Sequence record: MN850604.1
Reading direction: 5' to 3' (one strand)
Length of the DNA: 50,596 nucleotides
From: Escherichia phage tunzivis
Both the position numbers and the translations under genes were made by a program. Below the pieces are notes generated by a model, which did not search any database, had not been told where the DNA came from, and worked only from the letters and a program-made list of their open reading frames with translations. Positions 4 to 48,531 of this stretch are shown here, piece by piece (position 1 is the stretch's first letter; each line of letters begins with the position of its first letter).

Positions 4-1119
4 ATGAAAAATGTAAAAATTACAGATGAGCAATTCAAGATCGAACGGGCGGCTGGTAAGACATATAAACAGATCGCTCAAGAGTACGGAATGAATGTGA
101 GAAGCGTCGAGCGTCGCGCGGCGCGACTTGCAAAGCAAGGCCAGGTATCCACCATTGGAGCGCCTGGTTTTGGCGTTCATGGTGAGTCAGTAATGACTGA
201 CAAAGAAGGCAACATAATCCTAAAGTGGACTAAAACCAGCAAGGATAAAGAGCAATTAGAAGCATTAATGCGCGCAGCAATGGAGGCATTTAGCGAGGAA
301 GTGCCGCGATTAGATCCGGTTCCATTACAGGAGCGAGACTATAACGAAACGCTTTCCTTGTATCCGATCTTTGACATGCACTTAGGCGCTATGGCCCATA
401 AGCACGAATGCGGCGAAAATTGGGATACTGCCACGGCAGAGCGCGTTATGAATAACTTTATCGACTATGCTTTAATGTGCGCACCGGATAGCGAAAAGGC
501 TGTCATCCTGATTGGTGGCGATATGCTGCATAGCGACGGCCTGGAGGCGGTTACACCTGCAAGCGGTCACGTACTGGATCAAGATAGTCGATATGCAAAA
601 TTGGTTTACGTTGCCATCCGTGCAATGCGACGAGCAATCAATAAAATGTTGTTAAAGCATAAACATGTTGAAGTCCAGATCGTAGAGGGCAATCATGACC
701 AATCAGGAATGATTTGGCTGCGCGCAGCAATGGCGGCAGCATATGAAAACGAGCCGCGCGTTTACGTTGATGTTTCCCCTCGCGTTGTGCACCACACGCA
801 ATACGGAAAAACTTTCCTTGCGTACCATCACGGGCACACAGTGCGTAAACCGGAGACTTTGCTAATGATGTGCGCGTCAGATTGGCGGGAGGACTTCGGA
901 AACTCAAAAACGATGTATGCGCACGTAGGGCACTGGCATCACCAGACCGTAACGGAAACGTCGCTTGGCATCGTGGAAGTACATAGCACCCTGGCGGCAA
1001 AAGACGCATACGCAGCGCGCGGTGGCTGGCGATCTCGACGCCGTGCGGCGGTTATCATTTACGACAAAGAGCATGGAGAGGTTGGGCGATTTGTTCACTA
1101 TCCAGAAATGATGAATTGA
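4..1119 (+). CDS. HTH domain fused to calcineurin-type metallophosphoesterase (Mre11/SbcD-like)
   Basis: 371-aa ORF; N-terminal helix-turn-helix-like segment (KTYKQIAQEYGMNVRSVERRAARL); ordered phosphoesterase motifs FDMHLG, GGDMLHSDG, EGNHDQ, YHHGH, GHWHH; followed by hairpin+T-run terminator. Confidence 0.6.
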   Translation: MKNVKITDEQFKIERAAGKTYKQIAQEYGMNVRSVERRAARLAKQGQVSTIGAPGFGVHGESVMTDKEGNIILKWTKTSKDKEQLEALMRAAMEAFSEEVPRLDPVPLQERDYNETLSLYPIFDMHLGAMAHKHECGENWDTATAERVMNNFIDYALMCAPDSEKAVILIGGDMLHSDGLEAVTPASGHVLDQDSRYAKLVYVAIRAMRRAINKMLLKHKHVEVQIVEGNHDQSGMIWLRAAMAAAYENEPRVYVDVSPRVVHHTQYGKTFLAYHHGHTVRKPETLLMMCASDWREDFGNSKTMYAHVGHWHHQTVTETSLGIVEVHSTLAAKDAYAARGGWRSRRRAAVIIYDKEHGEVGRFVHYPEMMN

Positions 1120-1166
1120 TGAATTTTTATTTAAATCAATGACAAATTAAATCAAAAACTTGCAAA

Positions 1167-1197
1167 GGGGCGGCGTTTGTCGCCTCTTTTTTTTTGT
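1167..1197 (+). terminator. rho-independent terminator
   Basis: GC stem (GGGGCGGCG..CGCCTC) followed by run of 9 T. Confidence 0.6.
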
Positions 1198-1265
1198 TTA
1201 ATTTTTTACCATGTACGTTTATCATGCGGTCAATATATTGACTTTAATTAATATGGAGAATAAAA

Positions 1266-1481
1266 ATGAAAGATTTTATTAACGCAGCTACCGCTGGATC
1301 TGGCGGTTCATCTATCGCAAGCGCCGCTACAGGGCAGTTAACCATTGCTATTGCCAGCTTTGTTTTAATGGCTGCATTCGGTGCATGGGGCGCTTACCTT
1401 CGCTGGCGTGATAGTAAAAAATTCCACGAAGCGATCGAAAAAGGTGATATTCAAAAAGCTATTGAAATCAGGGGCAAGTAA
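1266..1481 (+). CDS. putative holin
   Basis: 71 aa; one hydrophobic TM stretch ([21 protein letters not shown]) and charged C-terminus; stop overlaps endolysin start (TAATG); RBS GGAGA upstream. Confidence 0.5.
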
Positions 1482-2801: not shown

Positions 2802-3197
2802 TCATGTGATATTGAATTTACGGCGCAGTGCTTCAAGATCTTGTCTATTAGCTTTTGCCTGGAACAATTCATCATCGCCCATCTCCCCTATTCTAGCTAT
2901 ATCCCTGATCCAGTCGTTGCGCATACCATCCAGGCTATACAATTCGAATCCGAAAGGCCGCTTTGACGATCCTTTGGACCAGTATTTTCCGCAGACTCCA
3001 TCTATATAACCAGCCGTCATCATTCTTGCGCAAAATTCCTTAGATGCAAGGCTGGCGAACATTCGCGGCGTAAGTCCGGCGGCCCGTGCGAGCCGCTCAC
3101 ATTCTCTATGCTGATAGATAAATTTGGCTATGTGCTGCCTGTTAAACCAATCGTATGACTCACACCATTTATACAGATCAAGCAAAAACATAATCAT
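2802..3197 (-). CDS. hypothetical protein
   Basis: 131-aa ORF; start ATG overlaps stop of upstream gene 3194..4774 (ATGA coupling). Confidence 0.45.
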   Translation of the reverse strand: MIMFLLDLYKWCESYDWFNRQHIAKFIYQHRECERLARAAGLTPRMFASLASKEFCARMMTAGYIDGVCGKYWSKGSSKRPFGFELYSLDGMRNDWIRDIARIGEMGDDELFQAKANRQDLEALRRKFNIT

Positions 3198-4774
3198 CCC
3201 AGCAGTATTGGATTGACAAAAATAACACCATTAATCACACAAACATAATTTCTTTCTTCCAGCATTGGCAGTAAGTGCCCTTCTATCCTTTTCATTACGC
3301 CAGCCTGACCAACGAAAGGTTTTACCTTTCTCGCTGATTCGTACAGGGCGCGGATATTCAGAATCCCTTTATTAGCCTTGCCGTGCCTCGTGATCAATTC
3401 AATCAATTTACCCATTTCAGCATCATCACCAGCATAACCAGAAGCATTGGCGGCGCTAATGTATGTTTTGCTCAATTCCTGAAACATGATCAACGCCTCT
3501 TGCATTGTTTCCACGTCGATCTCTTTCGACTTCTGCGGGTATCCGGCAGGATTAAACCAGTTACGGATAACATGCAGGACGGAAGCAAGCCTGATCACCT
3601 GTTTATCCATTTTACCCAGCGCACCGCGTAACATTGTATGAGAATACTTTCCTCCGTCTGCAAGATGCGGTTCCATATCCTGGCGAGCAATGTTGAGCAC
3701 TCGCATAGCTGAACGGCTTATTTTCAGCGATATATTTGATTCGCTCATGATGTTATGCACCAATTGATAATATTGGGCTTTCAATTCAGAATCCACCGCC
3801 TCATAGGTAGAATCACCATTTTCATCAATGAATGAGCGACGGCCTAAGAATGATTCCTCTCGGACCAACAAAAAACGCTCACTAACACCGATGCCTCGCG
3901 ATCCAGCGTCCATGATTCCGCTTATCGTTTCATCCTGGGCTATGACGCTCATACATCCAAGCGCGCGAAAACTCATATTATTGTCAGCATTAGCACGGGC
4001 AATTGATACGTGACCATTATCCCACGCCTTAAGCACTAACTCACTGTTAGTCTTCCTTTCGCTATTTGCATAGGTCAAGCCTAACAGACTGTTAATACTT
4101 GTTGCTTCATCAGATATTACGGCAAAGTTACCTTGCTTGTTGTTGATTTTCGCCAAGCCTTCTGGAGTTGTATCTGAAACAGGAAAAGTTATATCACACA
4201 TTTTTTCCAGCTTTTCCTCCAGATCCTCTTTTTCCTGGTATAGAGATTCCATATCAGCGCCGGATCTTTCGCTTTTCATCTCCTTTGCAAGACCTGCCAG
4301 CTTTGCCTGTATTTTCTTTCTTTCCTTGCGGCGTTGCTCGTTGATCTTCTCAACTTCCGCAATCATCGGAGCAATAGCCATGCTGTTGATCGCAGATTTA
4401 CCAGTTGACGGCGGCTGGCTTGTAACGACGTAAAGCGCAGTCGGCTGATCGGTTCCGTGATAGTCAACCGTAAAGCGTCCAAGCATAGCGGCAGAAATGC
4501 AGCCGATAAAGTGCATGTAAGCCGATGATTCAGGGAATTGAACGGATCGCGCAATGCTGCGTGATAACTTGCCGACAACATCAATATCATTACCAAGAGA
4601 AATAACGGGGTAGCGATCGTGACCGCTATTCACATCCTTTACGTCGCCCCAAAAGCTGGACGACTGGCGATAGCCGTTAGCCTGAATTGATACGCGAACT
4701 GGCGAAAGGTTCTGGCTTTCAGCCATAGCGATTATTTGTTGTGGAGTTAATTTGTTCGTTTCTAATGAAAACAT
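3194..4774 (-). CDS. P-loop NTPase, putative replication-associated helicase-like protein (DUF3987-like)
   Basis: 526 aa; Walker A-like VVTSQPPSTGKSAINS; RBS AAGGAGAAG; motif-type promoter 53 bp upstream; family assignment is from memory. Confidence 0.45.
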   Translation of the reverse strand: MFSLETNKLTPQQIIAMAESQNLSPVRVSIQANGYRQSSSFWGDVKDVNSGHDRYPVISLGNDIDVVGKLSRSIARSVQFPESSAYMHFIGCISAAMLGRFTVDYHGTDQPTALYVVTSQPPSTGKSAINSMAIAPMIAEVEKINEQRRKERKKIQAKLAGLAKEMKSERSGADMESLYQEKEDLEEKLEKMCDITFPVSDTTPEGLAKINNKQGNFAVISDEATSINSLLGLTYANSERKTNSELVLKAWDNGHVSIARANADNNMSFRALGCMSVIAQDETISGIMDAGSRGIGVSERFLLVREESFLGRRSFIDENGDSTYEAVDSELKAQYYQLVHNIMSESNISLKISRSAMRVLNIARQDMEPHLADGGKYSHTMLRGALGKMDKQVIRLASVLHVIRNWFNPAGYPQKSKEIDVETMQEALIMFQELSKTYISAANASGYAGDDAEMGKLIELITRHGKANKGILNIRALYESARKVKPFVGQAGVMKRIEGHLLPMLEERNYVCVINGVIFVNPILLG

Positions 4775-8664: not shown

Positions 8665-8723
8665 TTACTATCTCCTGAGCGGTTCGTTTCGATGTGTGTA
8701 ATGTACCCGATCAGGCGGCCTGA

Positions 8724-8742
8724 GTTTTAACAAAAAGTGCTA
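8724..8742 (-). promoter_or_regulatory. conserved motif copy upstream of 8392..8664
   Basis: exact 19-mer; 18-nt spacer; TACATT; CATCGAAACGAACC leader. Confidence 0.55.
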
Positions 8743-8749
8743 TTTGACG

Positions 8750-9300
8750 GTTATCGCCAGGATTGCGATCGAAATAATCAAAAGTAATCATTCGTAATCA
8801 AATCACGTCAAAATGATGATTGCCTTTGCAAATTTGATGAGAAAAGCAATCACGTTTAATCATTGGTTGCAGGGGAGATAGTGAAACCTTCCCCTCTTGC
8901 CTCACTTTTCCGCTTGGCTGTCAGCGGTTGTTGTCTTTTGTTCACCCCTGTTACCGATTTCAGGCGGCGTGTTTCCGCGCGGTTTTCCGGTGTATCGAAA
9001 ACGGAAAAAACAAAAAAAATCCTTTATAATACATTGAAAATAAAGATTATTTATTTATATATATCTATAATGTTTTCTTTTTGTTCTCACTGTTACAGTG
9101 CTTTTTGTTGGGTATGGTGTGTTTGTGTGTGGGTATATATGGATAGTTGCGCGCGCGGCGGATTGCATATGTATATATACTTTTTCCGGCGGATTGCGTT
9201 AACAGCGTGAACAGAAAAATAACAGCCCTGAAATCAATAACTTGCGCATGATTTTGTAGTTTTTCGATATTGGTAACGTTTTGAATACAACAAAAACATT
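8750..9300. repeat. AT-rich divergent control region with short direct repeats (TAATCA-type), TA/TG-rich tracts and a motif-like AGTGCTTTTTGTT
   Basis: TAATCA/AATCAC repeats 8775..8870; GGTTTTCCGGTGTATCGAAAAC 8981..9002; TTATTTATTTATATATATCTATAAT 9047..9071; GTGTGTTTGTGTGTGGGTATATATGG 9118..9143. Confidence 0.5.
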
Positions 9301-9326
9301 GACACGCACAAAATAGCTTTTATAAT
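9299..9326 (+). promoter_or_regulatory. consensus sigma70 promoter (TTGACA-16 nt-TATAAT), candidate early promoter
   Basis: TTGACA at 9299..9304, TATAAT at 9321..9326; 32 bp upstream of first rightward gene. Confidence 0.65.
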
Positions 9327-9357
9327 GCGCCAACAGTCAACAACTGGAGGAAAGGAA

Positions 9358-9822
9358 ATGGAACAGAAGACCACTAAGGACTATTGCGATTGGCTTCGCG
9401 AGCTTGGTCGCCGCCTGGCTAGTGGCGATATTGAAGAGTATAAAATGTCACTAATTGACCTGGCCGGAATGTTAAGCGGTGACGACTGCTACAAGATCAC
9501 GCGCAGTTCATCCTACAGCCGGACCATTATCAACCGCGTTCCAGAAGTAAGGGCCGCAGGTCGGGTAAGCATCAAGGTAGAGGAAACGGAAGATGATAAA
9601 TTTTACGTTTTCCGCATGGTCCGCGAATCGAAAAGGAAAATCATCACACCCGAAGAATTGCCAGCCATCAAGGCAAGGGCGATCAAAAAGTTTGCCGATC
9701 GCATACTGGCAGCAATCCCGAATATCGTGGACCTGGAAGGGGATAAACTGGCTGGGGCTTGCGAGGGTGTAAGCCGCTACCAGGATATGATCCGCGAAAT
9801 CATCAAAGAGGAAGAGCAATGA
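9358..9822 (+). CDS. hypothetical early protein (first gene after consensus sigma70 promoter)
   Basis: ORF 9325..9822; ATG at 9358 preceded by GGAGGAAAGG; 154 aa; a possible DNA-binding role is speculation. Confidence 0.45.
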   Translation: MEQKTTKDYCDWLRELGRRLASGDIEEYKMSLIDLAGMLSGDDCYKITRSSSYSRTIINRVPEVRAAGRVSIKVEETEDDKFYVFRMVRESKRKIITPEELPAIKARAIKKFADRILAAIPNIVDLEGDKLAGACEGVSRYQDMIREIIKEEEQ

Positions 9823-28514: not shown

Positions 28515-28831
28515 AGCGGGCGGTTTACCTGTTTTACCTCAAGCCGCCAACTGACGCACAATTAGAGGCCGTCGGCCTATCCCGTTCAGACTACGAAGGG
28601 GAGGATCCGCCGGAGGTAATTTTTGATGAATCAATGTTTCAATCTTGGGATCTATTTTGCGCCATGCAGACGCAATGGAGATCGACTAGCGGCAGTGTGT
28701 ATGGGTTCGACTATAACGTTTTGCCTATGCTTTTTGACATTTACAAGATTGAGGATCGGGAGATGGCGCTAAATGATTTGCGCATCATGGAACAAAAGGC
28801 GCTAGAAATGATTCATTCAAACAAAACATAA
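28197..28831 (+). CDS. tail assembly chaperone GT (-1 programmed frameshift product)
   Basis: -1 frame stays open from 28511 to 28831 (the track ORF 28634..28831 is its distal part); lambda G/GT-like arrangement. Confidence 0.55.
28505..28511 (+). other. -1 programmed ribosomal frameshift slippery site A_AAA_AAC (G to GT)
   Basis: heptamer lies 1-2 codons before the G stop; -1 frame open for a further 107 codons. Confidence 0.6.
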
Positions 28832-38885: not shown

Positions 38886-38937
38886 CTTTATATCTCCTTA
38901 GTTGTTGTTTTCAACTATACACGATCTTGGGCATCGC

Positions 38938-38955
38938 GTTTAGCAAAAAGTGCTA
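38938..38955 (-). promoter_or_regulatory. conserved motif copy (variant TAGCACTTTTTGCTAAAC) upstream of lipoprotein operon 38885->37721
   Basis: 18-nt spacer then TATAGT; RBS AAGGAGAT. Confidence 0.5.
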
Positions 38956-39325
38956 TTTGTTATTTTTTGTTTTCCGGTGTTATCGAATTTAAGACGGCGT
39001 AAATTTAGCGCAAAATTTAGACAACATAAGATCAATAAACAATCAATAAAATAGATATATACATATAAAATCAATAGTTTATTTATTTATGTATGTATAT
39101 TTGTTTTTTCTTGTTATCTGCGTTTCTTGTGGTTTTGGTTGTTTGTGGTGATTTTTCTTTCTGAGTATCTGTATGTGCCATCATTCATGTGTATGTATAT
39201 AATCCGGCGTATCTGAGAGAACATGGTAACAAGAAAAATAACACACATTAATCATTAACTTATGAGTCAAATCTGTTTTCTTGCCATCTGAGAACGTTTA
39301 GAAAACAGAAAAAACAAAACAGCTA
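38956..39325. repeat. second AT-rich divergent control region, partly homologous to 8750..9300
   Basis: GTTTTCCGGTGTTATCGAA 38969..38987 matches 8982..8999 with one inserted T; ATCAATA repeats; TTTATTTATTTATGTATGTATAT; GT-rich TGTGGTTTTGGTTGTTTGTGGTG. Confidence 0.5.
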
Positions 39326-39353
39326 TTGACTAAATCAACCAAATGGCTACAAT
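39326..39353 (+). promoter_or_regulatory. near-consensus sigma70 promoter (TTGACT-16 nt-TACAAT), candidate early promoter for recombination operon
   Basis: TTGACT 39326..39331, TACAAT 39348..39353; 30 bp upstream of exonuclease gene. Confidence 0.6.
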
Positions 39354-39383
39354 GCACGCATAAAGCAACAAGGAGCATTAAAG

Positions 39384-44984: not shown

Positions 44985-45914
44985 TTATAGCAGTGATTCA
45001 GGCTTGTAGAGTTTTCTTTCTACGCCCTGTTTAAAATTATCGTTAACAGGCATCATTATGTCAAGCCCTCTTTCCTCTGCCGCGATTATCACATCACGAT
45101 CATCTTTCCGGCAGACTACGCGCATTCTTCTTTCTCCTTTATATCTATGCGCAACCATTTCAAGATTTGAAGGAGTAAAACAGGCCCACACCTCTTGACC
45201 AGTTGATAAATGAACATGCTGAGAATCAACCCAATCAAGGCACAAATAGATCGTCTTATCTGTACTACCTGTTTTAACAACAGATCCGCGCGTGTAGTCG
45301 CGAGCTAAAAACCAATCCTTTCCATCCTCATCAATGAAAAGCACGTTACACATTTCATCATCCAGCCCGTCATCATGCACCAGGTGACAAGGTAGCGCGT
45401 GAATGTATCGACCATCCTTGACTCCGCAATCATAATGACAATCTTCCGGCGGATATATCCCCTCATAAACGCTTAAAGGTGTGCGATCGAATTTTAATGT
45501 TTTTTCCATCACTTTTTCGCAACATTCATGACTTGCCTGTTTCCCGAACGAGTAACCAGAAGAACGCGAAGCGCGTTTGTTTGCTCTGATCCTGTAATCT
45601 TGTGGCACTTTTCCGAGGAAGCGGCCCAAAATGTTGATGGCCTCGCTGTAAGGTTCGCCAGTTAATTTCATTAACCAACCGATCCCCGTGTCGTTGCCGC
45701 ATACGTTGCAGATCGCGCCGCCGTCGCCCTCTTCATTTAGCTTATCAGTCCACCTAAAACGATCCTTACCGCCGCAGTGTGGGCAAGGCTGATGCTTTTT
45801 GTTGAAAACATCGCTATGCAGTCCGCAAATGCTTTGTAGTGCTTCACGCCATAACCCCTTCATATATGGCAAAACATCTTCTTTCTGATAGGTCATAAAG
45901 CTTTCAGTATTCAT
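44985..45914 (-). CDS. DNA primase (zinc-ribbon type)
   Basis: ORF 44985..45992; ATG 45914 after GAGG; primase zinc ribbon CPHCGGKDRFRW...CNVCG; adjacent to helicase gene. Confidence 0.6.
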   Translation of the reverse strand: MNTESFMTYQKEDVLPYMKGLWREALQSICGLHSDVFNKKHQPCPHCGGKDRFRWTDKLNEEGDGGAICNVCGNDTGIGWLMKLTGEPYSEAINILGRFLGKVPQDYRIRANKRASRSSGYSFGKQASHECCEKVMEKTLKFDRTPLSVYEGIYPPEDCHYDCGVKDGRYIHALPCHLVHDDGLDDEMCNVLFIDEDGKDWFLARDYTRGSVVKTGSTDKTIYLCLDWVDSQHVHLSTGQEVWACFTPSNLEMVAHRYKGERRMRVVCRKDDRDVIIAAEERGLDIMMPVNDNFKQGVERKLYKPESLL

Positions 45915-45969
45915 GGCAAACCTCAATAAAAAAGCCCAGCAAATATTATCATTTCGCTGAGCCTTATCA

Positions 45970-46446
45970 TTAGCTATTTGTGCTGTTATCACCTTTGTAG
46001 AATCGTCCGCCTGGTTCGTAGTCTGAATTTTTGACTACGCGCAACATCTCGTATTTGTCGCAACGGGTAGTAAGAGGCTTACCGTTAGAATCAAACCGCA
46101 GATCTGGACGACAAAATGATGCGCGGTATCCTTTGCATCCATTATATTTGTAGTCGTTATGCACCTTTTGTGCTCCAGCGGCTGAAATCATACCACGCTT
46201 TCGCCATTGGTTAACGACTTGCTGAGATACGCGTAGACGTCGAGCCATAGCAGGAACACCGCCATAATACTCGATCAGAATATCCAGGCGAGATTTCAGG
46301 CTTGCTTTTACCTCATCTCGCAGGATAAGAAATCCGGTTCGGTGTTTTCGTGGCTTTTTGTCTTTACCTCGTCGCGTTCCGTTGTTACCGTTAATAGTGC
46401 GCTTGTCGATCTCACCCGTAGAAACTGCAATTCGTGCATCTTTCAT
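45970..46446 (-). CDS. HTH DNA-binding protein (candidate transcription regulator)
   Basis: 158 aa; helix-turn-helix-like GGVPAMARRLRVSQQVVNQWRKRG; RBS AGGTGA abuts an inverted copy of the conserved motif. Confidence 0.5.
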   Translation of the reverse strand: MKDARIAVSTGEIDKRTINGNNGTRRGKDKKPRKHRTGFLILRDEVKASLKSRLDILIEYYGGVPAMARRLRVSQQVVNQWRKRGMISAAGAQKVHNDYKYNGCKGYRASFCRPDLRFDSNGKPLTTRCDKYEMLRVVKNSDYEPGGRFYKGDNSTNS

Positions 46447-46458
46447 CTAGTCACCTCA

Positions 46459-46477
46459 TAGCATTTTTTGTTAAAAC
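46459..46477 (+). promoter_or_regulatory. conserved motif copy (TAGCATTTTTTGTTAAAAC) in divergent region between HTH gene and helicase
   Basis: forward for helicase (TATTAT at +37); on the other strand it directly abuts the RBS of the HTH gene. Confidence 0.55.
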
Positions 46478-46533
46478 AGTTTATTGTAATGAGTCTATTA
46501 TATACTCCAAATGGCATTTTTTAAAGGTTTAAG

Positions 46534-48531
46534 ATGATTCCAAATATCGAAAAACAAATATCAGCGTTAGGCGAGGCAGTAATAAAAAGCATCCAAGAGC
46601 GATTCACGGTTGGCAATATAGTGCCTTATCCTTATCAGTGCGTTGCGTATGCAGAGATCGCAAAGCGCATGAAAAACTATGAGCATCCTTTCTTTGTTAA
46701 GGCTTCTGTATCGGCTGGCAAAACATTGATGTTTGCGATGGTTGCGGCGCAATGCCGCAAAATGGGATTGAAAATGATGGTCCTTGCTCGCCAGGCTGAA
46801 ATTGTTGATCAGGATTCGGAAGAGATCAGCAATCTTGGCGTGCCAAACTCAATCTATTGCGCAGGACTGAAAACAAAAAGCGCATACTTTCCGATCGTAG
46901 TCGGTTCTGAGGGCACTGTAGTAAACGGATTGTTTAAGTCGTTAGGTGATTATGTTCCGCACGTTATCGGTATTGATGAATGTCACCAGGTGGATTGGGA
47001 GGATCTCGCGGACGCGATAGAAAATAATGAATCTTACCAGCAGATGACCACTAAGAAGGATTTGCCTGTACTGATTGGAGAAGAACAGCAATTTGATTCC
47101 AATGGCGATCCAATGTTCGGAACAGGGCGCACACAGTACACCGTAATAATCATGGAAATGATGCGTAGGTGTCGCGAGGCATACGGGCACGAATTGCGAA
47201 TATTCGGCATGACTGGATCTGAGTTTCGCGGCGTGGTTCCAATACTGGTTGAAGATAAGAACAAAAAGGGATTCTGGCGTGAGCAGGTGACTAACATAGA
47301 CACAAACTACTTAATCAAATTCGGTTCGGTAGTGCCAACAAACTTCGGCGACGTAGGCGACCTGGGTTATGACCTTTCAGAGTTCGAAGCCAGTAGCGAG
47401 GATGGCGTTTCAGACTTTGACGCTAAAACATTGCGCAAGATGGAAGAAAAGATCCATCAAGACGCAACAATGACACAGAAAATCATGGCTAAAGTCCATG
47501 AGATATGCAAAGACAGGAACGGAGTTTTAGTTACATGCGCAGGGGAAAGGCACTGCAAGGAGGCTGCCGCCGCACTGCCGCCAGGCGTTGAATACAGGAT
47601 CATAACTGGCAAGACTGGAGATAATCAGCGTAAAGAGTGGCTGAGGGAGGCATACGAGGGAAAAGTAAAATACATCTTCCAGGTACAGGCGCTTACCACT
47701 GGCGTTAACGTTCCGTTTTGGGATACTTCTGTAATACTGAGAAAGATAGGATCTCTAACATTGCTTATCCAGCTTTTGGGGCGCGGCATGCGACTGCTTA
47801 AGCAATGGCACATTGAGCAGGGATTCAAGAAAAAAGATCATCTTGTATTGGATTTTGCAGGTACTATGGATGAGTTAGGTGATTTGTATTTCGATCCAAT
47901 CCTTGAGCAAGCGCAATTCCAAAAGAGATTTACAAACGGGAAAGAGCCTAAGACTTGTCCGATATGTGGAACGCTAAACAGCTTTTACGCTCGCCGATGT
48001 ATGCACGTAGACGATAACGGGAAGCGATGTGAGCATTTTTGGACTTACAGAATTTGCGAGGACCAGGTAGATCCGAGAACGAAAAAGATAATCAAGCGCG
48101 GTTGTGGAACAAAAAACGACGTAGTGGCGAGAGTATGCCGTTGTTGCGATATTTCTCTTGTCGATCCTAACGAGAAGTTAAGCGGTAAGCACTACACCAA
48201 AAACGATTGGTGCAACGTTAAATCTTTCCGCGTTGATATGACGAAAAACCAGAAAGGAATTATTTTTTGCTATGAGCTTGAGGCCAACGGCGACACGTTC
48301 AAGGCATACGAAAGATTTTTCCCTGAGTCAGAAAGCAACATTTGCCGGACGATATGGAGAAAAATAGCATTGCAGCACATACCGGATCGCAAGATTGCTG
48401 GTATGGTGGCGAGCTATAGAAATGCTCGTAAAATAATGTCATACGCTCATCACATCATGCCGCCTGTACGCGTAACGCATCGCAAAAACGGCAAAGGTGA
48501 GGATAACATTGCAAAACGGGAGTTTGTTTAA
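46534..48531 (+). CDS. superfamily-2 DNA helicase with C-terminal zinc ribbons
   Basis: 665 aa; Walker A SVSAGKT, DExH box GIDECHQ; C-terminal CPICG...CRCC clusters; motif-type promoter upstream. Confidence 0.75.
   Translation: MIPNIEKQISALGEAVIKSIQERFTVGNIVPYPYQCVAYAEIAKRMKNYEHPFFVKASVSAGKTLMFAMVAAQCRKMGLKMMVLARQAEIVDQDSEEISNLGVPNSIYCAGLKTKSAYFPIVVGSEGTVVNGLFKSLGDYVPHVIGIDECHQVDWEDLADAIENNESYQQMTTKKDLPVLIGEEQQFDSNGDPMFGTGRTQYTVIIMEMMRRCREAYGHELRIFGMTGSEFRGVVPILVEDKNKKGFWREQVTNIDTNYLIKFGSVVPTNFGDVGDLGYDLSEFEASSEDGVSDFDAKTLRKMEEKIHQDATMTQKIMAKVHEICKDRNGVLVTCAGERHCKEAAAALPPGVEYRIITGKTGDNQRKEWLREAYEGKVKYIFQVQALTTGVNVPFWDTSVILRKIGSLTLLIQLLGRGMRLLKQWHIEQGFKKKDHLVLDFAGTMDELGDLYFDPILEQAQFQKRFTNGKEPKTCPICGTLNSFYARRCMHVDDNGKRCEHFWTYRICEDQVDPRTKKIIKRGCGTKNDVVARVCRCCDISLVDPNEKLSGKHYTKNDWCNVKSFRVDMTKNQKGIIFCYELEANGDTFKAYERFFPESESNICRTIWRKIALQHIPDRKIAGMVASYRNARKIMSYAHHIMPPVRVTHRKNGKGEDNIAKREFV

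What the first reader, a model, noticed from the sequence alone, without database searches (positions are those of the whole stretch)
8750..9357. Two partly homologous AT-rich divergent control regions: candidate origins or early control centres
Regions 8750-9357 and 38956-39383 are the only long non-coding stretches (about 600 and 430 bp). Both lie between divergent operons. Both end in a near-consensus sigma70 promoter firing rightward, start with a motif-type promoter firing leftward, and share specific sequence: GTTTTCCGGTGT(T)ATCGAA, TTTATTTATTTAT and (T)GTATGTATATA-type tracts. Region 8750-9357 also has direct TAATCA/AATCAC repeats at 8775-8870; the second has ATCAATA repeats. Iteron-like repeats with AT-rich unwinding tracts are typical of replication origins; alternatively they are binding arrays for a regulator. 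The only ORF here (8863..9210) is low-complexity and probably not coding.
Basis: seen in the sequence. Interest (0 to 1): 0.55.

Follow-up and report, generated by a model that had tools for sequence, protein, structure and literature searches.

The report
Paired candidate origins in T1-like phage
The two longest non-coding stretches of this T1-like coliphage are old duplicates of one ~370-bp DNA element, kept in all the T1 relatives examined, that holds the genome's most easily melted DNA flanked by short repeated boxes and a strong early promoter; they are the best candidates so far for the unmapped replication origins of this phage family, but this is not proven.

Summary
The window is a Warwickvirus (Drexlerviridae). 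Regions 8747-9357 (A) and 38960-39383 (B) are its two longest unannotated gaps. A 8928-9298 and B 38957-39316 are collinear paralogues: 64% identity, z about 12 against composition-matched shuffles.

New evidence:
- The pair also exists in T1 and TLS, so the duplication is old. B's layout is conserved in the 33 diverse relatives aligned (of 43 loci fetched).
- The AT-rich centres of A and B are the two least stable duplex segments of the genome in this window, in T1 and in TLS.
- Short (G/T)AACA boxes lie in the same inverted layout in A and B. The box sequence changes with lineage: GAACA in Tempevirinae, TGTAAC in T1-like phages.
- I found no conserved RNA structure, Rfam match, conserved ORF or DnaA box.

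The extra left part of A (8753-8927, the AATCA repeats) lies in the intergenic region where the T1 and TLS genome records start and where the pac site is reported. These repeats are therefore more likely packaging-related than origin iterons.

Best reading (about 0.45): paired origin-type elements, each joined to an early promoter. Main rival (about 0.3): control arrays for early transcription only. GC skew cannot separate them. An experiment is needed.

The parts
8700..8752 (-). Leftward promoter of region A. It has the family's 21-nt repeat (read on the - strand: CAAATAGCACTTTTTGTTAAAAC) and, 22 nt further on, a -10-like TACATT.
   Evidence: The repeat is described for TLS in PMC11447400.
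8753..8927 (.). A-left, the segment with no counterpart in B. It has AATCA/TGATT-type repeats (8775-8862), the inverted repeat AGGGGA/TCCCCT (8871-8897), and a terminator-like hairpin plus T-run (8910-8937, + strand). It is a candidate packaging (pac) zone.
   Evidence: The T1 and TLS records start in the equivalent spacer. PMC7718038 places the T1 pac site there. Alignment of this segment to the T1/TLS pac zone is not significant.
8928..9003 (+). Left arm of core A. It has T-form boxes TGTTC/TGTTA at 8939 and 8949 (TGTTCACC is exact at 8939-8946), CGGCGTGTTT at 8965-8974, and a second partial copy of the arm, GGTTTTCCGGTGTATCGAA, at 8981-8999.
9004..9096 (.). AT/TA-rich, quasi-palindromic centre of core A (candidate DNA unwinding element). 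It includes the core ATTATTTATTTATAT(A/G)TATCTAT, conserved in all four A orthologues apart from the one A/G position, and T-form boxes at 9082 and 9091.
   Evidence: Least stable 40-bp window of the genome and second least stable 100-bp window. Self-complementary at 70% over 97 nt. Invariant block in alignment A3.
9097..9155 (+). G+T-rich spacer. The second most keto-rich 80-nt window of the genome starts at 9071.
9156..9226 (+). Right arm of core A. It has CGGCGGATTGC twice (9156, 9187) around a TATATA patch, then three A-form boxes TAACA/GAACA/TAACA at 9200, 9209 and 9220 (GTGAACA at 9207).
9232..9244 (+). Match to the IHF core consensus, AATCAATAACTTG.
   Evidence: About 5 such matches occur in the whole window, and this block is conserved in the family alignment.
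9278..9326 (+). A-rich UP-like block followed by the perfect sigma-70 promoter TTGACA-16-TATAAT. It drives the rightward early gene at 9358 (DUF7174).
38914..38965 (-). Leftward promoter of region B: the 21-nt repeat plus a -10-like TATAGT.
38957..39011 (+). Left arm of core B. It has T-form boxes at 38958 and 38978 (GTTTTCCGGTGTTATCGAA) and CGGCGTAAAT at 38997-39006.
39012..39118 (.). AT/TA-rich, quasi-palindromic centre of core B (candidate DNA unwinding element). It has an IHF-consensus match at 39069-39081 and a T-form box at 39112.
   Evidence: Least stable 100- and 200-bp windows of the genome.
39119..39203 (+). G+T-rich spacer (the most keto-rich 80 nt of the genome, 85%) ending in the patch TGTATGTATATAAT.
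39204..39262 (+). Right arm of core B. It has CCGGCGTATC, three A-form boxes at 39219, 39227 and 39239 (GAGAACATGGTAACAAGAAAAATAACA), and the IHF-like block AATCATTAACTTA (one mismatch).
39298..39353 (+). A-rich UP-like block followed by the sigma-70 promoter TTGACT-16-TACAAT, conserved across the family. It drives the exonuclease VIII - Erf - SSB operon.
3194..4774 (-). DUF3987 helicase with a C-terminal winged-helix domain. It is a candidate (unproven) box-binding initiator.
44985..46446 (-). P4-alpha-type primase (44985-45992) and the Cro/YdaS-like HTH protein upstream of it (45970-46446). The HTH protein is the alternative candidate for binding the boxes.

Best explanation
Regions A and B each contain one copy of an ancient ~370-bp cis-acting DNA element that is conserved in all the Drexlerviridae I examined. 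From left to right the element has:
- two T-form TGTT(A/C) boxes and a CGGCG(T)AAAT box;
- a quasi-palindromic TA-rich centre, which is the most easily melted DNA of the genome;
- one or two more T-form boxes;
- a G+T-rich spacer;
- a second CGGCG box;
- three inverted (G/T)AACA boxes;
- an IHF-like site and an A-rich UP-like block;
- a strong sigma-70 promoter firing away from the element.

Most likely these are the phage's replication origins, or an origin plus a second cis replication site.

Inferred mechanism. A phage-encoded DNA-binding protein occupies the inverted box arrays. The candidates are the DUF3987 helicase, through its C-terminal winged helix, or the Cro-like HTH protein encoded next to the P4-alpha-type primase. 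A host bending protein such as IHF may help. Early transcription leaving the element leaves negative supercoils behind it: on both sides in this phage, on the right side only in Tlsvirus B. Together these open the TA-rich centre so that the helicase and primase can load. The same DNA also serves as the upstream region of the two early promoters.

Region A carries an extra left module (8753-8927) that probably belongs to the packaging (pac) zone, not to the origin.

What is shown: paralogy, conservation, the stability minima, box enrichment and its change with lineage, and the absence of an RNA or ORF signal. What is inferred: binding, unwinding and initiation.
For: - Paralogy. A and B are paralogous in this window (z about 12), in T1 (z 5.1) and in TLS (z 4.9). 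Orthologues score higher than paralogues between this window and TLS: TLS B with window B z 10.1, TLS A with window A z 7.0, against 3.3 and 8.9 for the crosswise pairs. T1 is too diverged for this comparison. The duplication is therefore old.
- Conservation. The layout of B is kept in the 33 aligned relatives, drawn from 43 loci whose exonuclease is 57-100% identical. Footprint blocks are at least 95% conserved among about 8 effective Tempevirinae lineages. A has a core of about 23 bp conserved in four genera apart from one A/G position.
- Helix stability. The centres of A and B are the two least stable 40-bp and 100-bp windows of the whole genome here (z 4.3-5.0), in T1 (z 4.8-5.9) and in TLS (z 4.5-5.0). 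Seven of the 16 TATATA hexamers in the window lie in the cores, against 0.14 expected. The centres are imperfect palindromes.
- Boxes. [GT]AACA occurs 13 times in the cores, against 3.7 expected from the genome and 5.4 +/- 2.2 in composition-matched shuffles (2 of 1000 reached 13). The orientation pattern is the same in A and B.
- Box sequence changes with lineage in both copies. In TLS, GTGAACA has 4 of its 8 genome copies in A+B (p 2e-6). In T1, TGTAAC has 9 of 24 (p 6e-11) and GTGAACA none. At orthologous B loci, GAACA occurs 2-8 times (mostly 3-8) in Tempevirinae and TGTAAC 6-7 times in T1-like lineages.
- Not RNA or protein coding. Rfam gives nothing even at E=1. The RNAalifold consensus energy is about -1 to -3 kcal/mol over 366 nt. 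The ORFs are not conserved.
- Literature. The origin of T1-like phages is reported as not found (PMC11447400; PMC7718038).
Against: - There are no functional data of any kind.
- The box arrays are short and degenerate in this window. Exact GTGAACA occurs twice, both times in A, and B has only variants.
- Overall conservation is only modestly above synonymous sites. B core between the window and TLS is 58% identical, against 48.5% at four-fold sites and 45% for gap-optimised shuffles. The constraint is patchy.
- Every feature except the stability minimum also fits a transcription-control region. In T1 region A, TGTAAC boxes overlap the rightward promoter like operators.
- There are no DnaA boxes and no GATC cluster.
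- The winged-helix fold is generic, and the P4 alpha origin-binding domain was not among the top matches.
- T1-type phages might replicate mainly by recombination-dependent initiation, without a fixed origin.
Confidence: 0.45

Rival explanations
1. The regions are early-transcription control centres only. The two cores are extended upstream regulatory regions of the two strongest host-RNA-polymerase (early) promoters. The A-rich block acts as an UP element. The boxes are operators or activator sites for a phage regulator, for example the Cro/YdaS-like HTH protein, which shuts off or times early transcription. The TA-rich centre is flexible DNA that allows looping between the left and right box arrays.
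For: - Both cores end in the best sigma-70 promoters of the genome. The TLS authors found only three sigma-70-like intergenic promoters in that phage.
- A-rich blocks lie at about -40 to -60.
- In T1 region A, two inverted TGTAAC boxes flank or overlap the promoter.
- The inverted box arrays, about 240-270 bp apart, suit looping.
- The phage encodes an HTH regulator.
- The right arm and promoter of A are exchanged together as one mosaic unit between Warwickvirus lineages.
Against: - About 370 bp of conserved layout, with the most conserved block (the TA-rich centre) 250-300 bp upstream of the promoter, is unusual for sigma-70 promoters.
- This reading does not explain why these two sites are the global stability minima in three genera.
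- Phasing of A-tracts, which would indicate curved activating DNA, is not consistent between A and B.
Confidence: 0.3
2. One or both copies are a packaging or fork-management site rather than an initiation site. A would be the pac region recognised by small terminase. B, or both cores, would act as a protein-bound fork barrier or recombination hotspot that triggers the switch to concatemer synthesis, as proposed for SPP1 oriR.
For: - The T1 and TLS records begin inside the A-equivalent spacer. TLS starts at the mapped pac motif AGATTT amid TGATT repeats. The SU57 paper puts the T1 pac site in this UTR.
- B adjoins the exonuclease/Erf/SSB recombination operon.
- SPP1 offers a precedent: two origins, with initiator protein bound at oriR stalling forks (PMC3485210).
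Against: - The pac-zone repeats lie in A-left, which has no counterpart in B. The shared core is therefore not explained by packaging.
- A-left of this window cannot be aligned significantly with the T1/TLS pac zone (z 2.5 or less).
- No data exist on fork stalling.
Confidence: 0.12
3. The cores encode non-coding RNA: a small RNA, or a primer RNA started at the conserved TATAAT-like element in the AT-rich centre. The G/U-rich product could form an R-loop.
For: - A TATAATA(C/T)AT block is conserved in most orthologues.
- The region downstream of it is extremely G+T-rich and C-poor.
- A terminator-like hairpin lies at 9088-9100.
- Single-sequence folding gives z about -2.2.
Against: - There is no recognisable -35 or extended -10, and the block is degenerate in this window's own B copy.
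- The 9088 hairpin is not conserved in atuna, W011D or pSf-1.
- Rfam gives nothing at E=1.
- The consensus structure energy is about zero.
- The inverted-repeat complementarity is not conserved across orthologues.
Confidence: 0.06
4. The regions are non-functional AT-rich spacers whose resemblance is due to composition or chance.
For: The sequence is low in complexity, and many apparent repeats of 6-9 nt in AT-rich DNA are chance matches. A degenerate AT-rich pattern from the core hits unrelated viral contigs.
Against: - The homology survives shuffles that keep local composition.
- The layout is conserved across subfamilies where synonymous sites are only 38-48% identical.
- The box switches with lineage.
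Confidence: 0.02

Closest known systems
Bacillus phage SPP1 oriL / oriR
   Same: SPP1 is also a pac-type, headful-packaging siphovirus of similar genome size. It has two separate origin elements in one genome, next to early replication and recombination genes (5'-3' exonuclease, recombinase, SSB). The second copy is thought to act on fork progression rather than initiation (PMC3485210).
   Different: In SPP1 oriL lies inside the initiator gene and the two origins are 12 kb apart. Here both copies are intergenic and about 30 kb apart. I did not look for a homologue of the SPP1 initiator G38P, and the binding protein here is unknown. Replication from either site has not been shown.
Satellite phage P4 ori and crr (type I repeats TGTTCACC bound by the alpha primase-helicase)
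   Same: P4 has two partly homologous cis regions that share an octamer box, annotated in the P4 record as GGTGAACA/TGTTCACC. The Tempevirinae box core is the same word: GTGAACA in both TLS elements, and TGTTCACC exact at 8939-8946 in this window. The phage primase is homologous to the primase domain of P4 alpha (E 6e-14). A helicase with a C-terminal winged helix resembles the domain order of alpha.
   Different: - P4 has 6 boxes in ori and 10 in crr. This window has 2 exact heptamers, both in A, and only degenerate variants in B.
- T1-like lineages use TGTAAC instead.
- The helicase is DUF3987 and shows no sequence match to P4 alpha's helicase region. No sequence match to the alpha helicase or origin-binding domain was found, and 1KA8 was not among the top structural hits.
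- P4 crr has no large TA-rich centre.
Iteron/DUE origins activated by flanking transcription (lambda ori, oriC with gidA/mioC; from general knowledge)
   Same: Both have an AT-rich unwinding element beside arrays of initiator sites, a site for a bending protein, and promoters whose transcription away from the element would leave negative supercoils behind.
   Different: There are no DnaA boxes and no GATC cluster. The boxes are 5-7 bp and few, not 19-bp iterons. The element is not inside an initiator gene.
The 21-nt intergenic repeat of T1-like phages (aaATAGCACnnnTTGnTAAAA; TLS paper)
   Same: The leftward 'motif-type promoter' at the left edge of each region is a copy of this published repeat.
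   Different: The repeat marks about 17 transcription units across the genome. It is only the left boundary of regions A and B, not the paired core element. The TLS paper does not describe the paired core and states that no origin-like repeats were found.

Membership tests
Phage/plasmid replication origin with unwinding element and initiator boxes | An AT-rich DNA unwinding element of unusually low helix stability | tested here: met
   The centres of A and B are the two least stable 40-bp and 100-bp windows of the genome here, in T1 and in TLS.
Phage/plasmid replication origin with unwinding element and initiator boxes | Clustered repeated binding sites for an initiator | tested here: inconclusive
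   [GT]AACA boxes number 13 against 3.7 expected, with the same layout in A and B, and the box type is lineage-specific in both copies. But the boxes are short and degenerate, and no binding protein is known.
Phage/plasmid replication origin with unwinding element and initiator boxes | Replication actually starts there, or the element confers replication in cis | not testable with these tools
   This needs marker-frequency sequencing, 2D gels or a plasmid amplification assay.
oriC-type (DnaA-dependent) origin | DnaA boxes TTWTNCACA, and clustered GATC sites | tested here: not met
   Neither region has a DnaA box, even allowing one mismatch to TTATCCACA. Each region has one GATC site, fewer than expected.
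P4 ori/crr system | Multiple TGTTCACC type I repeats in both cis regions | tested here: not met
   The window has one exact octamer (8939) plus CGTGAACA (9206) in A, and none in B. TLS has 2 GTGAACA in each element. T1 has none.
P4 ori/crr system | An alpha-type protein: primase, helicase and C-terminal origin-binding domain | tested here: inconclusive
   A homologue of the primase domain is present (E 6e-14). There is no sequence match to the alpha helicase or origin-binding domain. The separate DUF3987 helicase has a generic C-terminal winged helix.
Two-origin arrangement (SPP1 oriL/oriR type) | Two partly homologous origin elements in one genome | tested here: met
   Two paralogous elements exist. 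That they function as origins is untested.
pac site of headful-packaging phage (applies to A-left only) | The first packaging cut, or genome terminus, maps there | not testable with these tools
   The evidence is indirect. The T1 and TLS records start in the equivalent spacer, and published statements place pac there. The sequence of this window's A-left is not significantly alignable to theirs.
Sigma-70 promoter | -35 and -10 hexamers at 16-18 bp spacing | tested here: met
   9299-9326 matches 12/12. 39326-39353 matches 10/12 and is conserved family-wide. Promoter activity was not tested.
Structured non-coding RNA | A conserved secondary structure, or membership of a known RNA family | tested here: not met
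   Rfam gives nothing at the gathering threshold or at E=1. RNAalifold consensus energy is about zero. The inverted repeats are not conserved.
Drexlerviridae 21-nt intergenic repeat | The consensus aaATAGCACnnnTTGnTAAAA, oriented with transcription and upstream of a gene | tested here: met
   8732-8746 and 38945-38959 are exact copies of the core, oriented leftward.

The most novel reading that the evidence does not exclude
The two elements would form a replicator with divided labour, recognised by a new class of initiator: the DUF3987 helicase, docking through its C-terminal winged helix on (G/T)AACA box arrays. One copy would fire theta replication. The other copy, next to the exonuclease/Erf/SSB operon, would act as a cis enhancer or fork barrier that switches the phage to recombination-dependent concatemer synthesis. 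The extreme G+T strand asymmetry beside each unwinding element would set the direction of helicase loading or priming. This would finally locate the origin of phage T1 and its family.
Probability: 0.15. Interest if true: 0.75.

Novelty: new member of a known kind. Interest (0 to 1): 0.5.

Why it matters
T1 is one of the classic coliphages, and its relatives are common laboratory and industrial contaminants and candidates for phage therapy. Even so, the two papers I could read that looked for an origin (TLS 2024, SU57 2020) report finding none.

A pair of conserved, precisely bounded elements gives the field concrete targets about 370 bp long. They can be used for marker-frequency mapping, ori-cloning, footprinting and engineering, for example minimal replicons or attenuated phages. 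The results also separate the probable packaging module in region A from the shared core.

If the elements turn out to be purely transcriptional, they still define the early-promoter control regions of the family.

Tried and rejected
- GC skew. Its sign follows gene orientation at every strand switch, so it is uninformative about an origin.
- Structured RNA. Rfam gave nothing at the gathering threshold or at E=1. RNAalifold with column shuffles gave a consensus energy of about zero. Single-sequence folding gave only z about -2.2.
- A conserved long stem between the T-box and the A-box arrays. Perfect complementarity of 11-12 nt occurs only in some lineages, and the others do not differ from shuffles.
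- Phased A-tract curvature. It is not consistent between A and B.
- Host-factor sites. There are no DnaA boxes and no convincing Fis pattern. There is only one match to the IHF consensus in each region, at non-equivalent positions.
- Copies outside the family. Nothing was found in the plasmid collection (PLSDB) or in 5,426 E. coli genomes.
- Scan of IMG/VR with a degenerate pattern from the AT-rich core. It hit mostly unrelated AT-rich contigs and was uninformative.
- Records that start at region B (BEK26). The record is simply linearised just before the exonuclease gene; the fetched ends give no sign of a terminal repeat.
- Transcriptome literature. I found no RNA-seq data for Drexlerviridae; the one candidate paper sequenced a T5-like phage.
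- ORFs. The ORF at 8863..9210 and the small ORFs in both regions are not conserved.
Full report
IDENTITY AND CONTEXT. The window is a complete or nearly complete genome of a T1-like coliphage (Drexlerviridae, Tempevirinae, Warwickvirus). It is 98-99% identical across both regions to phages tonn, tinuso, swan01 and others. In the annotation of tinuso the two largest unannotated gaps are the counterparts of region A (693 bp) and region B (501 bp). The next gap, 356 bp, sits between the tape-measure chaperone and tape-measure genes, where TLS annotates a joined two-piece product, so I infer it is coding. Region A lies between a leftward cluster of small early-type genes and a rightward cluster that begins with a DUF7174 gene. 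Region B lies between three leftward small genes that follow the tail genes and the rightward exonuclease VIII - Erf - SSB operon.

CHECK OF THE OBSERVATION.
- The rightward promoters are TTGACA-16-TATAAT at 9299-9326, the only 12/12 match in the genome, and TTGACT-16-TACAAT at 39326-39353.
- The leftward 'motif-type promoters' are exact copies of AAAAAGTGCTATTTG at 8732-8746 and 38945-38959. Read in the direction of the genes, the motif is AAATAGCACTTTTTGTTAAAAC, followed after 22 nt by a (C/T)ATAAT-like -10. There are about 17 good copies, all oriented with transcription. This is the 21-nt repeat already published for TLS, whose function its authors list as an open question (PMC11447400).
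- The shared sequence is not limited to a few words. A 8928-9298 and B 38957-39316 align collinearly at 64% identity. The local alignment score is 73, against 25.7 +/- 4.0 when B is shuffled within 10-nt blocks, so the match is not a by-product of similar composition gradients.
- There is no third copy in the genome.
- The 115-codon ORF at 8863..9210 is broken into other frames in the related phage atuna. No small ORF is conserved.

THE PAIR IS ANCIENT AND FOUND IN EVERY RELATIVE EXAMINED.
- I anchored on the exonuclease gene and retrieved 43 loci whose exonuclease is 57-100% identical, including T1 and TLS. In the alignment of 33 of them the layout of region B is kept throughout. Within Tempevirinae (about 8 effective lineages) the footprint shows blocks that are at least 95% conserved. 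These are the left TTTTGTT..GTGTT boxes, an invariant TTGTT after the centre, CGGCG.AAAT..GTGAACA..AACA.AAAAA, AATCA..ACTTA, AACAGAAAAAACAA, and the promoter.
- Region A orthologues from four genera share a core, ATTATTTATTTATAT(A/G)TATCTAT, that is conserved apart from one A/G position, together with the TTGACAC promoter.
- T1 and TLS each have their own A/B pair (z 5.1 and 4.9). Between this window and TLS the orthologous pairs score z 10.1 (B with B) and 7.0 (A with A), against 3.3 and 8.9 for the crosswise pairs. T1 is too diverged for this comparison. The duplication therefore predates the split of the subfamilies.
- The constraint is patchy rather than uniform. Between the window and TLS the B core is 58% identical, against 48.5% at four-fold sites of the adjacent exonuclease gene and 45% for gap-optimised shuffles.

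ANATOMY OF THE SHARED CORE. Each core has the following parts, from left to right:
1. Two T-form boxes TGTT(A/C) (8939 and 8949; 38958 and 38978) and a CGGCG(T)AAAT-like box.
2. An AT/TA-rich centre of about 90-100 bp that is an imperfect palindrome: A-rich on the left, T-rich on the right, 70-72% self-complementary.
3. One or two more T-form boxes (9082 and 9091; 39112).
4. A spacer that is extremely rich in G+T on the top strand. The two most keto-rich 80-nt windows of the whole genome start at 39077 (85%) and 9071 (80%).
5. A TATATA patch and a second CGGCG box.
6. Three A-form boxes (G/T)AACA in inverted orientation (9200, 9209 and 9220; 39219, 39227 and 39239).
7. A conserved AATCA(A/T)nnACTTA block. 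It matches the IHF core consensus exactly in A and with one mismatch in B. B has its exact match in the centre instead.
8. An A-rich UP-like block and then the promoter.

The box count is 13, against 3.7 expected from the rest of the genome and 5.4 +/- 2.2 in shuffles that keep local composition (2 of 1000 reached 13). The orientation pattern is the same in both copies.

TWO PROPERTIES THAT POINT TO A DNA-LEVEL, ORIGIN-LIKE FUNCTION.
First, with nearest-neighbour energies the centres of A and B are the two least stable 40-bp and 100-bp windows of the entire genome (z 4.3-5.0). The same holds for T1 (z 4.8-5.9) and TLS (z 4.5-5.0). TATATA is concentrated there: 7 of 16 copies in this window and 15 of 22 in T1.

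Second, the sequence of the boxes changes with lineage, in both paralogues of a genome and at orthologous loci.
- In TLS, GTGAACA has 4 of its 8 genome copies in A+B (p 2e-6).
- In T1, GTGAACA is absent from both regions, but TGTAAC has 9 of its 24 genome copies there (p 6e-11).
- Across the aligned B loci, GAACA occurs 2-8 times (mostly 3-8) in Tempevirinae and TGTAAC 6-7 times in T1-like lineages. One lineage uses TGTAAT.

Boxes that change together in both copies while keeping their positions are what one expects of sites read by a phage-encoded protein that co-evolves with them.

WHAT THE CORES ARE NOT.
- No Rfam family matches, even at E=1, and there are no tRNAs.
- The RNAalifold consensus energy over 12 diverse B orthologues is -1 to -3 kcal/mol for 366 nt, which is effectively nothing.
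- Single-sequence folding gives only z about -2.2, which the A-rich/T-rich inverted layout explains.
- Long complementarity between the T-box and A-box arrays is present only in some lineages.
- There are no DnaA boxes, GATC is depleted, and A-tract phasing is inconsistent.
- GC skew simply follows gene orientation.
- Nothing similar occurs in the plasmid collection or in complete E. coli genomes.

THE EXTRA MODULE IN REGION A. B aligns only to the right 370 bp of A. The left 175 bp of A (8753-8927) hold the AATCA/TGATT repeats, a conserved GGGGAGATAGTGAAAC...CCCTCTTGC inverted repeat (also present in pSf-1 and, on visual comparison only, resembling T1's GGGGGGATCTAGTG), and a terminator-like hairpin.

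The GenBank records of T1 and TLS both begin inside the equivalent spacer. T1 annotates a 2.8-kb terminal repeat starting there. TLS begins with AGATTT, the motif its authors assigned as pac after restriction mapping, inside a run of TGATT(G/T) repeats. The SU57 paper states that the T1 pac site lies in this untranslated region. The pac zones of TLS and T1 are homologous to each other (z 6.9), but this window's A-left cannot be aligned to them significantly (z 2.5 or less). The assignment of A-left as a packaging module is therefore by position and repeat type only.

CANDIDATE PROTEINS. The phage encodes four relevant proteins:
- a primase homologous to the primase domain of P4 alpha (E 6e-14);
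- a Cro/YdaS-like HTH protein just upstream of the primase;
- a second, superfamily-2-type helicase (Helicase_C/ResIII/DEAD domains);
- a DUF3987 helicase at 3194-4774.

COMPARISON WITH P4. The P4 record annotates ori and crr, two cis regions that share the octamer TGTTCACC/GGTGAACA. The Tempevirinae box core is the same word. TGTTCACC is exact at 8939-8946, and GTGAACA occurs twice in each TLS element. But copy numbers are low, T1 uses a different word, and no homologue of the alpha origin-binding domain was detected. This is a resemblance in logic, not membership of the P4 system.

MOST LIKELY MECHANISM (inferred). A phage protein binds the inverted box arrays on both sides of the TA-rich palindrome, possibly helped by IHF. 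Early transcription leaves the element and generates negative supercoils behind the polymerases: on both sides in this phage, on the right side only in Tlsvirus B, where the left T-box doubles as a terminator tail. The weakest duplex in the genome then opens, and the helicase and primase load.

Two copies could be alternative origins. They could also be an origin plus a second cis site, as in P4 (ori/crr) or SPP1, where oriL fires and oriR bound by the initiator stalls forks and triggers recombination-dependent concatemer synthesis (PMC3485210). The position of B directly upstream of the exonuclease/Erf/SSB operon fits that picture.

The main rival is that the cores are only long control regions for the two early promoters. 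That reading explains the promoter-proximal A-rich block and the operator-like boxes over the T1 A promoter. It does not readily explain a conserved, maximally unstable palindrome 250-300 bp upstream. I put the origin reading at about 0.45 and the transcription-only reading at about 0.3. The two are not mutually exclusive.

NOVELTY. The 21-nt repeat and the strong promoters are already described for TLS. The paired core element is not. The TLS paper states that no origin-type repeats were found anywhere in that genome, and the SU57 paper reports no origin. Further full-text searches found no description. If confirmed, this would be a new member of a known kind (a phage origin with an unwinding element and box arrays, in two copies), not a new kind of system.

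Noticed in passing
window 2673-50029 (about 17 copies, e.g. 4835, 5509, 7427, 10085, 10548, 11765, 12932, 15567, 44893, 48944, 50015): The family's 21-nt repeat AAATAGCACTTTTTGTTAAAAC is always oriented with the genes. It is followed after a fixed 22 nt by a (C/T)ATAAT-like -10, often with TGn in front. The TTGTTA inside it is too far from the -10 to serve as a -35. This looks like a promoter class that depends on an upstream factor site. Its function is still listed as an open question in the TLS paper.
   Followed up: partly
phage collection, (e.g. MG065643, MG065680, MG065675): Eighteen GenBank records named 'Campylobacter phage' carry a T1-like region B at about 72% identity and have T1-like genome sizes. 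They look like E. coli-type Drexlerviridae deposited under a Campylobacter host label.
   Followed up: no
window 9145-9357 compared with L054 (atuna) and L051 (pSf-1): Within Warwickvirus, the right arm and promoter of region A have been swapped as a unit. The atuna-type lineages carry a Hanrivervirus-like version (GATAACA boxes) and the window type resembles Changchunvirus W011D. Region B meanwhile stays 94-96% identical.
   Followed up: partly
window 9071-9150 and 39077-39156: The two most G+T-rich 80-nt windows of the whole genome (80% and 85%, with C at 5% in B) lie immediately to the right of each AT-rich centre. In TLS, B ranks third. In T1 this asymmetry is not prominent. I have no explanation for it.
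   Followed up: partly
window 3194-3520 (- strand; helicase residues about 415-526): The DUF3987 helicase ends in a winged-helix domain that also exists as a separate PHROG family (phrog_7327). This suggests a mobile DNA-binding module.
   Followed up: yes
L056 (TLS) 28707-28760; L013-L022 in alignment A2: In Tlsvirus there are no leftward genes before region B. The tail gene's terminator hairpin runs straight into the left T-box, which then also serves as the terminator's T-run.
   Followed up: partly
window 1090-1290 and 46440-46560: These are the next least stable AT-rich spots after A and B. The second is the divergent promoter region between the HTH-regulator/primase operon and the helicase gene, and it holds two degenerate copies of the 21-nt repeat.
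   Followed up: no
window 8871-8897, with counterparts in pSf-1 (L051) and T1 (L049, near record position 60): The inverted repeat GGGGAGATAGTGAAAC...CCCTCTTGC in A-left is conserved in the Hanrivervirus pSf-1 (alignment) and, on visual comparison only, resembles GGGGGGATCTAGTG in T1. In T1 it lies about 65 bp from the start of the genome record, so it may be part of the packaging signal.
   Followed up: partly
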